From a virus (lineage: Duplodnaviria > Heunggongvirae > Uroviricota > Caudoviricetes), in the IMG/VR virus record IMGVR_UViG_2541047121_000027: a stretch of DNA of 12,870 bases. One strand, 5' to 3'. Under the pieces are notes generated by a model. The model made no database searches, was not told the DNA's origin, and saw nothing but the letters and a program-made list of their open reading frames with translations. Made by a program: the position numbers and the translations under genes. This document shows, one piece after another, positions 7,403 to 7,435 of this stretch. How positions within the stretch are numbered: position 1 is the stretch's first letter; every line of letters begins with the position of its first letter.

Positions 7403-7435
7403 CATTGCATAAAATGCAATTCTGATTATAATCAG
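7403..7435 (+). promoter_or_regulatory. Sigma70-like promoter for the head operon with overlapping palindromic operators
   Basis: -35 TTGCAT (7404..7409), 17-bp spacer, -10 TATAAT (7427..7432). The -10 lies inside a perfect 14-bp palindrome CTGATTATAATCAG (7422..7435); the -35 lies inside the inverted repeat ATTGCA-TAAAA-TGCAAT (7403..7419). Confidence 0.5.

What the first reader, a model, noticed from the sequence alone, without database searches (positions are those of the whole stretch)
7403..7435. Near-consensus promoter for the head operon embedded in two palindromes
-35 TTGCAT and -10 TATAAT with a 17-bp spacer would be a strong constitutive promoter, but the -10 lies inside a perfect 14-bp palindrome (CTGATTATAATCAG) and the -35 inside a second inverted repeat (ATTGCA-N5-TGCAAT). 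This suggests capsid and terS expression is held off by a repressor, or that the palindromes are a late-activator site, so structural genes are only expressed after helper infection.
Basis: seen in the sequence. Interest (0 to 1): 0.5.

Follow-up and report, generated by a model that had tools for sequence, protein, structure and literature searches.

The report
Packaging-operon promoter of an E. coli PICI
This is very probably the real promoter of the capsid and packaging genes of a phage-parasitic island in E. coli O157:H7. It sits between two conserved protein-binding sites and inside a transcription terminator, which makes it a tidy but ordinary kind of genetic switch whose controlling protein is still unknown.

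Summary
The -35/-10 spacer is 16 bp, not 17. TTGCAT matches TTGACA at only 3 of 6 positions. Neither a 14-bp palindrome nor a TTGnnn-N16-18-TATAAT pattern is unusual by chance in 12.9 kb.

The case rests on conservation. The same cassette lies in front of the gpE-like capsid / gpD-like / Nu1-like (Rpp-type) operon in about 600 of 5426 complete E. coli genomes, including CFT073 and Nissle.

- **Invariant parts:** TTGC, AAAATG, TGATTATAATCA and CTGG.
- **First palindrome:** it is one of two copies of a 17-19 bp dyad, 30 bp apart, centred near -27 and -57.
- **14-bp palindrome:** it is mostly the self-symmetry of ATTATAAT, and its outer C/G pair is not conserved. Its 3' half belongs to a 14-bp hairpin plus U-run (7430-7466) that shows compensatory changes. 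This is an intrinsic terminator for upstream transcription, and transcripts starting at about 7439-7441 escape it.
- **-10 and +1 assignment:** a natural promoter swap, with its junction at +1, into a capsid-forming PICI supports this.
- **Helper phages:** lambda, phi80 and 50,697 other phage records do not carry the dyads.

Repressor control is the best guess. The regulator is unidentified.

The parts
7287..7331 (+). Strong intrinsic terminator closing the replication/PerC module. Stem 7289-7302 / 7314-7327, then TTTTGC. It partly overlaps an alternative hairpin 7267-7279 / 7287-7299.
   Evidence: Inverted repeats I1 and I2. RNA fold -29.1 kcal/mol, z -3.1. Nearly invariant in 9 diverged islands even where the upstream sequence differs.
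7360..7374 (.). Weak outer dyad TGAT-N7-ATCA. It mirrors TGAT-N4-ATCA around the -10, and together they make 7360-7434 a loose two-fold symmetric array.
   Evidence: Left 31-mer versus the reverse complement of the right 31-mer: 19 of 31 matches, shuffle mean 9.3, P about 2e-4. TG 7360-61 and AT 7371-72 are invariant.
7373..7391 (.). Site A, the upstream copy of the dyad (cATTTCATAATTTGCAACa), centred near -57.
   Evidence: Found with 2 mismatches to the first palindrome. Invariant except one position in the BLAST-collected alignment. In loci collected without using site A as bait it is exact in 79 of 89 and off by one base in 10 of 89.
7403..7421 (.). It covers the -35 hexamer and most of the spacer.
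   Evidence: TTGC 7405-7408 invariant in 54 of 54; AAAATG 7411-7416 invariant apart from single variants at 7413 and 7415. Pairs are kept in 97.6% of cells but without double changes. 15 of 19 positions are identical to site A, 30 bp upstream.
7405..7410 (+). -35 hexamer TTGCAT (3 of 6; TTG invariant, last two positions vary).
7427..7432 (+). -10 hexamer TATAAT (6 of 6), 16 bp after the -35.
   Evidence: Invariant in 54 of 54 unique variants including a cf-PICI recombinant. It aligns in register with the TATTCT -10 of EcCIEDL933.
7422..7435 (.). The conserved core is TGATTATAATCA (7423-7434); the outer pair 7422/7435 is variable.
7439..7441 (+). Predicted transcription start (TGG), 7-9 nt after the -10. 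It is also the recombination junction with the cf-PICI 5'UTR.
   Evidence: Inferred from -10 geometry. Homology of L009 to this window ends, and homology to EcCIEDL933 begins, within TGG. CTGG 7438-7441 is invariant.
7430..7466 (+). Intrinsic terminator overlapping the promoter. Its 14-bp stem is 7430-7443 / 7448-7461, with loop AAAC and then a U-run. The 5' arm starts inside the -10.
   Evidence: Repeat I4. Folds: -16 kcal/mol in the window (z -3.4), and -17.7 kcal/mol with a perfect stem in the commonest variant (z -4.5). 96.1% of cells paired and 3 pairs with double changes, including a U-A > U.G > C-G series at 7435/7456. RNA starting at 7440 keeps only a 4-bp stem.
7473..7491 (+). Ribosome-binding site AGAGGA (7473-7478) and ATG (7489) of the first gene.
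   Evidence: The upstream in-frame ATG at 7456 is not conserved.
7489..10272 (+). The operon served, in gene order: 68-aa protein of unknown function, gpE-like capsid (7695-8750), gpD-like decoration (8763-9098), scaffold-like 137 aa (9111-9524), cos site (cosN 9585-9596), and the Nu1-like/Rpp-type gene (9730-10272).
   Evidence: Pfam and PHROG hits. RefSeq annotation of the same island. cosN.

Best explanation
The finding marks the junction between the early (replication/PerC) module and the packaging/interference operon of an EcCICFT073-type phage-inducible chromosomal island. In O157:H7 this island is OI-51 / CP-933C. Three functions are packed into about 110 bp.

(1) A sigma-70 promoter: TTGCAT, a 16-bp spacer and TATAAT, with the start at about 7439-7441.

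(2) Two copies of a 17-19 bp dyad (consensus cATTKCAYAAWWTGCAAy), 30 bp apart and centred near -27 and -57. These are most likely the operator for a dimeric or tetrameric DNA-binding protein. Because site B covers the -35 and the spacer, that protein would hold the promoter off until the island's late phase. That the dyads bind a regulator at all, and that it represses, are both inferred.

(3) An intrinsic terminator whose 5' arm begins inside the -10. Transcripts arriving from upstream form the full 14-bp hairpin plus U-run and stop. Transcripts initiated at this promoter start inside the hairpin, lack its 5' arm and read on into the operon.

Shown: the sequence features, their conservation, and the covariation in the hairpin. 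Inferred: the transcription start, termination in vivo, protein binding, and the sign of regulation.
For: - **Location and spread:** the site lies in the only sizeable gap before the capsid operon. The cassette is present in 591-598 of 5426 complete E. coli genomes, including CFT073 and Nissle, and is unannotated there.
- **Footprint:** TTGC and TGATTATAATCA are (near-)invariant, as are AAAATG and CTGG. Substitutions cluster between these blocks, at 7391-92, 7400-03, 7409-10, 7421-22, 7435-37 and 7444.
- **-10 and +1:** KY176 cf-PICI carries this cassette up to TGG and then the EcCIEDL933 5'UTR. EcCIEDL933 has a homologous AATCATGAgTATtcT with its -10 in the same register, 6 nt before TGG.
- **Site A** is conserved even when it is not used as bait.
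- **Hairpin:** 96% of cells are paired and 3 pairs show double changes (13 of 500 shuffles reach this), with wobble intermediates. Folding energies are -16 to -17.7 kcal/mol, z -3.4 to -4.5.
- **Repression rather than activation:** the -10 is perfect and TTG is retained, and site B is centred at about -27. The one homologous promoter that lacks the dyads (EcCIEDL933) also has a weaker -10, TATTCT, and carries different upstream repeats.
- **Literature:** no packaging-operon promoter for Gram-negative PICIs was found described.
Against: - There are no transcription data, so the start site and promoter activity are inferred.
- The family is closely related (the cassette is about 86-92% identical across it, the flanking capsid gene about 94%). 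Footprinting power is therefore limited, and the shuffle controls can be inflated by shared ancestry.
- No repressor candidate exists. The literature says a global repressor in Gram-negative PICIs is unclear (PMC6092414).
- Neither PerC nor the 68-aa first gene is always present with the cassette.
- The dyad occurs nowhere else in the island nor in lambda or phi80.
- The dyad pairs show no compensatory changes. That is expected for a protein site but gives no positive proof.
- A third terminator 110 bp after a strong one is not obviously needed.
- The contrast with EcCIEDL933 is a single case.
Confidence: 0.5

Rival explanations
1. It is an activator-dependent late promoter. The dyads are docking sites for a positive factor. 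That factor could be island-encoded (AlpA, RgdR/DUF4222 or PerC) or helper-encoded. It would recruit RNA polymerase to a promoter with a poor -35 after helper induction.
For: - The -35 is only 3 of 6.
- Site A at about -57 is near a class I activator position.
- AlpA is the known activator of E. coli PICIs (PMC6092414).
- RgdR is encoded by all E. coli PICIs analysed in that study and is a positive regulator (PMC6092414; PMC3378721). It was present in 34 of 35 full-length loci here.
- PerC lies directly upstream in many islands.
Against: - Site B is centred at about -27, over the -35 and spacer, which is an unusual place for an activator.
- The -10 is perfect and TTG is kept, so basal activity is expected.
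- The cassette is intact in CFT073/Nissle-type islands that lack PerC.
- The repeats near alpA and the island ends are a different motif, G.AACAA.
- RgdR showed only weak, non-specific DNA binding (PMC3378721).
- Pch has no defined motif (PMC4764244).
- Lambda and phi80 lack the dyad.
Confidence: 0.2
2. It is an unregulated constitutive promoter. The dyads are retained by descent or serve a host nucleoid or global factor. The only real design is terminator-then-restart.
For: The patterns alone are within chance. The family is young and closely related. No cognate regulator was found. EcCIEDL933 works without the dyads.
Against: Substitutions avoid the dyad half-sites while hitting the bases between them. 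Two copies are 15 of 19 identical and 30 bp apart. The array has a larger two-fold symmetry.
Confidence: 0.12
3. It is not a promoter at all. TATAAT is merely part of the AT-rich foot of a terminator or attenuator, and the operon is expressed by read-through or antitermination of transcription from the alpA promoter.
For: - All island genes point the same way.
- The hairpin, which includes bases upstream of the supposed start, shows RNA-type covariation. RNA crossing the -10 therefore exists and matters.
- AlpA-family proteins include a processive antiterminator in Pseudomonas (my own recollection, not checked here).
Against: TTATAATC is invariant even in the cf-PICI recombinant, where the downstream hairpin is replaced. 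The recombination junction and the EcCIEDL933 -10 sit in exact register with +1. Three terminators in 200 bp would have to be overridden.
Confidence: 0.1
4. It is a lambda-Q-type late switch. A constitutive promoter carries a Q-binding element between -35 and -10 and a terminator just downstream, and that terminator is overridden by the helper's antiterminator.
For: Site B lies between the -35 and -10, as the lambda and phi80 Q-binding elements do. A terminator-like hairpin follows at once. phi80 PR' also uses TTGCAT as its -35.
Against: - The terminator's 5' arm lies upstream of +1, so promoter-derived RNA cannot form it.
- There is no conserved -10-like pause element in +1..+25. The window has GATAAA and most relatives have GATGAA.
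- There is no similarity to the lambda or phi80 Q-binding sequences.
- Site A has no counterpart in Q systems.
Confidence: 0.05

Closest known systems
SaPI operon I promoter (LexA-controlled packaging/interference operon of staphylococcal PICIs; Ubeda 2007, cited in PMC6739421)
   Same: It is a separate promoter in front of the packaging/interference operon of a PICI, thought to be held off by a repressor bound at a dyad over the promoter.
   Different: There is no LexA box here. The palindrome is CTG-N8-CAG, not CTG-N10-CAG, and its C and G are not conserved. The operator is a different, duplicated dyad and its binder is unknown.
P4 Psid / PLL late promoters activated by P2 Ogr or P4 Delta
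   Same: It is the promoter of a satellite's morphogenesis operon, expected to fire late in the helper cycle. The island has P4-like int, alpA and Icd-like genes (PMC3378721).
   Different: There is no TGT-N12-ACA dyad at about -55 (read). The -10 is perfect, whereas Ogr-type promoters are weak without activator. The dyads lie at -27 and -57.
Lambdoid OR/OL-type tandem operators
   Same: Two 17-bp two-fold symmetric sites a few helical turns apart, one of them overlapping the -35 and spacer of a strong promoter.
   Different: The island has no CI/Cro-like gene. The annotated lambda operators and the phi80 operator sequences are unrelated. The centre-to-centre distance is 30 bp rather than 23-24 bp.
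CytR operators of E. coli (TGCAA/TTGCA half-sites; PMC3454398)
   Same: There are four TGCAA-type half-sites. The inner pair, 7382-7390 and 7404-7411 with N13 between, matches AYGTGCAAC-N10-13-GTTRCATT at 8 of 9 and 6 of 8 positions.
   Different: No flanking CRP sites are present (best core match 7 of 10). CytR cannot repress without CRP. Within each dyad the half-sites face the opposite way with N7 between them.
EcCIEDL933 (cf-PICI) capsid-operon promoter region
   Same: It is homologous around the -10 (AATCATGAnTAT) and has the same distance to TGG (+1). It has the same upstream genes (SSB, PerC, orf74) and terminator.
   Different: It lacks both dyads and is about 33 bp shorter. Its -10 is TATTCT. 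It carries three GTTGTTC repeats instead, the motif also found near the ends of this island. There is no hairpin with U-run over the -10.

Membership tests
Sigma-70 promoter | -10 hexamer close to TATAAT | tested here: met
   TATAAT 7427-7432, 6 of 6. Invariant in 54 of 54 unique variants.
Sigma-70 promoter | -35 hexamer close to TTGACA, 16-18 bp upstream | tested here: inconclusive
   TTGCAT is 3 of 6, with TTG invariant and the last two positions variable. The spacer is 16 bp. The site falls below the tool's 4-of-6 threshold.
Sigma-70 promoter | Primary transcript start 6-9 nt after the -10; activity in vivo | not testable with these tools
   Only indirect support: the module-swap junction and the register with the EcCIEDL933 -10.
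Intrinsic (Rho-independent) terminator | Stable stem-loop directly followed by a U-run | tested here: met
   14-bp stem 7430-7443 / 7448-7461 running into the T-run 7460-7466. Folds at -16 kcal/mol in the window (one mismatch and one G.U pair) and -17.7 kcal/mol as a perfect 14-bp stem in the commonest variant.
Intrinsic (Rho-independent) terminator | Stem maintained by compensatory substitutions | tested here: met
   3 of 14 pairs have double changes (13 of 500 shuffles reach this) and 6 cells (1 of 500). Slid controls give 0-1 pairs. Shared ancestry may inflate this.
Intrinsic (Rho-independent) terminator | Termination of upstream transcripts in vivo or in vitro | not testable with these tools
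   No transcript data available.
LexA-repressed promoter (as SaPI operon I) | LexA box CTGT-N8-ACAG (CTG-N10-CAG) over the promoter | tested here: not met
   The palindrome is CTG-N8-CAG. 7422 is A in 34 and 7435 is T in 26 of 54 variants. The consensus is from general knowledge.
Ogr/Delta-activated P2/P4 late promoter | TGT-N12-ACA dyad centred near -55 | tested here: not met
   No such dyad in 7370-7400. The consensus is from general knowledge.
Lambdoid Q antitermination site | Promoter-proximal -10-like pause element and a downstream terminator formed by the promoter's own transcript | tested here: not met
   GATAAA/GATGAA is not conserved. RNA from 7440 keeps only a 4-bp stem.
Lambdoid Q antitermination site | Q-binding element shared with a helper phage | tested here: not met
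   Matrix scans of lambda and phi80 give top scores of 14.1 and 14.8, against shuffle maxima of 18.5-19.7.
CytR/CRP-controlled promoter | TGCAA-type half-sites | tested here: met
   Four half-sites at 7375, 7385, 7405 and 7415. Motif from PMC3454398.
CytR/CRP-controlled promoter | CRP site within about 5 bp of the CytR site | tested here: not met
   Best TGTGA-N6-TCACA core match is 7 of 10.
Repressor operator of CI/Cro type | Tandem dyads overlapping the promoter | tested here: met
   Sites A and B are 15 of 19 identical and 30 bp apart. B covers the -35 and spacer.
Repressor operator of CI/Cro type | Cognate repressor gene in the element or the helper | tested here: inconclusive
   Pfam and PHROG hits show no CI/Cro-like gene. 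The 68-aa first gene was modelled at pLDDT 73 with no fold match. Lambda and phi80 lack the site.

The most novel reading that the evidence does not exclude
The duplicated TTGCA-N7-TGCAA dyads are the docking site of a still-unknown late switch of Gram-negative PICIs. This would be a host-, island- or helper-encoded protein that times expression of Rpp and the capsid homologues separately from the AlpA-driven early operon. The promoter-inside-a-terminator layout keeps the two programmes strictly uncoupled. The module is portable, since it has been swapped at +1 onto a capsid-forming PICI.
Probability: 0.3. Interest if true: 0.55.

Novelty: new member of a known kind. Interest (0 to 1): 0.3.

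Why it matters
For E. coli PICIs the early step is known: the helper induces alpA, and AlpA activates the island. I found nothing published on how the packaging/interference operon (Rpp, capsid and decoration homologues) is switched on.

This cassette is the obvious control point. It is present in the experimentally tractable EcCICFT073, so a handful of reporter and mutagenesis experiments could settle it. The same island (OI-51) also influences LEE expression and colonisation in O157:H7 through RgdR, so its transcriptional wiring has some medical interest.

The promoter-within-a-terminator layout is a neat example of compact insulation between modules. It is not a new principle.

Tried and rejected
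- **Genome-contig scans (both used up):** the capsid query gave no tblastn-confirmed locus. The 16-base site A pattern gave only chance hits in unrelated genomes.
- **Helper-phage operator idea:** blastn against 50,697 phage records found nothing. Matrix scans of lambda and phi80 stayed within shuffle maxima. The exact 17-mer in IMG/VR occurs outside PICI contigs only as isolated single sites with no operator-like neighbours.
- **68-aa first gene as a ribbon-helix-helix autoregulator:** the AlphaFold model (pLDDT 73) shows an extended N-terminus plus two helices, but there is no Foldseek hit below E = 1 and no PDB sequence hit. The gene is absent from the cf-PICI that keeps sites A and B. Inconclusive, dropped.
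- **orf93 and RgdR against PDB:** nothing.
- **PerC as the required factor:** the cassette is intact where PerC is absent.
- **PerC/RgdR link through LEE1:** the LEE1 upstream region has two ATGCAAT motifs and shares AAATGCAATT. By my own rough estimate, not a computed result, such a match has a chance probability of about 0.1-0.2. No Pch motif is known.
- **CytR:** the half-sites fit, but there are no CRP sites.
- **Compared by eye with remembered consensus sequences and rejected:** LexA (wrong spacing), Fur (wrong length), sigma-54 (no GG 10 nt upstream of the GC of TTGCA), lambda CII TTGC-N6-TTGC (second repeat out of register), marbox (second recognition element (YAAA) missing), DnaA box (present only in the O157 variant), and extended -10 (TG is one base too far upstream).
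- **Alternative promoters on either strand in 7340-7440:** none has acceptable spacing.
- **Rfam:** no family at threshold.

Full report
**What the window is.** The window matches E. coli O157:H7 chromosomes at 99.6-99.8%. The island lies between roxA and phoQ. This is O-island 51 / CP-933C / Sp7, a 15-kb element of the EcCICFT073 family of phage-inducible chromosomal islands (PMC3378721; PMC6092414). All genes read on the + strand:
- an integrase cut by an IS3-family insertion (homology to the intact island starts at 440)
- an AlpA-type regulator (1967-2155)
- Icd-like remnants
- RgdR/DUF4222 (4048-4347)
- RepA-type helicase, then a small conserved ORF, then SSB
- a PerC-family protein (6614-6886) and a 74-aa ORF
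- a 250-bp gap that holds the finding
- a 68-aa ORF, a lambda gpE-like capsid gene, a gpD-like gene and a scaffold-like 137-aa gene
- a cos site, a Nu1-like (Rpp-type) gene, and a second, inverted cos site

**Checking the observation.** Two details are wrong. The spacer between TTGCAT (7405-7410) and TATAAT (7427-7432) is 16 bp, not 17. TTGCAT matches the -35 consensus at only three positions, so the tool's own promoter scan did not list the site. Neither pattern is rare by chance:
- A 12.9-kb sequence is expected to hold about 0.8 perfect 14-bp palindromes. This one has four.
- 30% of random windows contain a TTGnnn-N16-18-TATAAT.
- ATTATAAT is its own reverse complement, so only three further pairs are needed for the 14-mer.

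The significance therefore has to come from elsewhere.

**Conservation.** The cassette occurs in 591-598 of 5426 complete E. coli genomes. It always lies in front of the same operon, is never annotated, and is present in CFT073 and Nissle 1917, that is, in EcCICFT073 itself. I collected 54 unique variants from these genomes and from IMG/VR contigs.
- TTGC (7405-7408), CTGG (7438-7441) and the ten bases TGATTATAAT within TGATTATAATCA (7423-7434) are identical or changed in a single variant; AAAATG (7411-7416) has single variants at two positions, and 7433-7434 change in two and one variants.
- Substitutions pile up at 7391-92, 7400-03, 7409-10, 7421-22, 7435-37 and 7444.
- The family is closely related overall. 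The cassette is about 86-92% identical across it, the capsid gene about 94%, and the 35 bp just upstream only 74-77%. This footprint is suggestive rather than decisive.

**The first palindrome is half of a pair.** A second copy, ATTTCATAATTTGCAAC, lies exactly 30 bp upstream (7374-7390). The two 19-mers are identical at 15 positions. I then collected loci with a pattern that does not include site A. In those, site A was exact in 79 of 89 and differed by one base in the other 10. The differences fall at positions that also vary in site B.

Taking +1 as about 7439, the dyads are centred near -57 and -27, and site B covers the -35 hexamer and most of the spacer. Together with flanking TGAT/ATCA elements, the whole stretch 7360-7434 has a loose two-fold symmetry (19 of 31 matches, P about 2e-4). 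This looks like a two-site operator for a dimeric or tetrameric protein. The dyad occurs nowhere else in the island beyond chance.

**The 14-bp palindrome is mostly something else.** Its outer pair is not maintained: C-G in 15, A-T in 21 and unpaired in 18 of 54 variants. Its 3' half (AATCAG) is the foot of a longer inverted repeat, 7430-7443 with 7448-7461, which runs straight into a run of seven T.
- In the commonest variant this stem is a perfect 14 bp (-17.7 kcal/mol, z -4.5).
- Across 42 distinct sequences, 96% of cells pair and three pairs show changes on both sides. These are C-G to U-A at 7433/7458, G.A and G.U to G-C/G-C at 7435-36/7455-56, and a U-A, U.G, C-G series at 7435/7456.
- Wobble intermediates point to selection on RNA.

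These bases lie upstream of any start that TATAAT could direct. The hairpin must therefore act on RNA arriving from upstream, as a terminator. It is the second or third terminator in 200 bp after the strong one at 7289-7331. RNA started at 7440 keeps only a 4-bp stem and should read through. The conserved TGAT at 7423-7426 remains unexplained.

**Independent support for the -10 and +1.** One capsid-forming PICI (strain KY176, L009) carries this cassette, including site A, a diverged site B and TTATAATC. After ACTGG it switches to the 5'UTR of the EcCIEDL933 capsid operon. EcCIEDL933 itself has a homologous AATCATGAgTATtcT. Its -10 (TATTCT) lies in exactly the same register, 6 nt before the shared TGG. 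A promoter module exchanged precisely at the predicted start is what one expects if TATAAT is a working -10.

EcCIEDL933 lacks both dyads, has the weaker -10, and instead carries three GTTGTTC repeats. That motif recurs at 10-bp spacing near both ends of this island. A strong -10 with dyads, against a weak -10 with other repeats, fits negative control by the dyads. It is a single contrast.

**Who binds?** I could not identify the protein.
- Lambda and phi80, the known helpers of EcCICFT073, have no site above shuffle level.
- Their late promoters and the phi80 CI operators are unrelated.
- No phage record matches by blastn.
- The exact 17-mer outside PICI contigs occurs only as isolated single sites.
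- PerC is absent from CFT073/Nissle-type islands that keep the cassette.
- The 68-aa first gene is absent from the cf-PICI, and its model gave no fold match.
- The half-sites resemble CytR half-sites (PMC3454398), but there are no CRP sites.
- LexA, Fur, sigma-54, CII, MarA, DnaA and Ogr/Delta consensus sequences, taken from general knowledge, do not fit.

**Verdict.** The details need correcting and the palindromes need re-reading. One is half of a duplicated operator. The other is largely the by-product of a self-complementary -10 and an overlapping terminator. Repression is the most likely mode, activation the main rival, and neither is tested.

The kind of element is ordinary, and I found no description of this particular cassette in the PICI literature searched. 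It can be tested directly in EcCICFT073.

Noticed in passing
window 1-440: An IS3-family element (orfA at 60-386 on the - strand, with an ALIL frameshift pseudoknot at 1-105) is inserted in the 5' end of the integrase gene. Homology to the intact island of strain 1130 starts at 440, which is 67 bp into int. The island in this strain is therefore probably unable to excise on its own.
   Followed up: partly
window 1658-1694 and 11271-11290; L275 1425-1450: Direct repeats G.AACAA at 10-bp spacing lie downstream of int, with inverted TTGTT.C repeats near the right end. They are likely Int arm-type or AlpA (excisionase) sites. Three copies of the same motif (GTTGTTC) lie just upstream of the capsid-operon promoter of the cf-PICI EcCIEDL933, which hints that AlpA or Int acts there.
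   Followed up: partly
window 9585-9596 (+) and 10452-10463 (-): There are two lambda-type cosN sequences (GGGCGGCGACCT) in inverted orientation, within about 75-bp inverted repeats that are roughly 91% alike and flank the Nu1-like/Rpp-type gene. This matches the cos1/cos2 pair reported for EcCICFT073.
   Followed up: partly
window 7267-7327: Two mutually exclusive hairpins share 7289-7299 (arms 7267-7279/7287-7299 and 7289-7302/7314-7327). In this strain the first terminator (AGCCGG...CCGGCT in relatives) carries a C-to-G change at 7271 that weakens it.
   Followed up: no
L250 (lambda) 44711-44722; L251 (LEE1 upstream) 364-372 and 411-420; L347 (phi80) 41987-42017: Short identities with the cassette. 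CAAAATGCAATC occurs in the lambda 6S/late leader. ATGCAAT occurs twice upstream of LEE1 P1, once as AAATGCAATT. phi80 PR' uses TTGCAT as its -35 and shares ACTGGATA. All are probably chance, but LEE1 is the known target of the PerC and RgdR proteins that these islands encode.
   Followed up: partly
window 1621-1634, 2858-2871, 11180-11193: Three other perfect 14-bp palindromes: AGTATGCGCATACT in the int-alpA gap, ATGGTAATTACCAT and ATGGGGATCCCCAT. The first sits where an int or alpA operator could be.
   Followed up: no
window 9111-9524: The 137-aa protein matches the C-terminal, scaffold-like part of long head-maturation protease families (phrog_53, E 5e-9). The island therefore encodes capsid, decoration and scaffold homologues but no portal, protease or large terminase.
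   Followed up: no
window 5915-6603 and all related loci: A small ORF of unknown function (phrog_1231) followed by an SSB gene lies upstream of the cassette in 35 of 35 full-length loci, whatever the replication gene or PerC content.
   Followed up: partly
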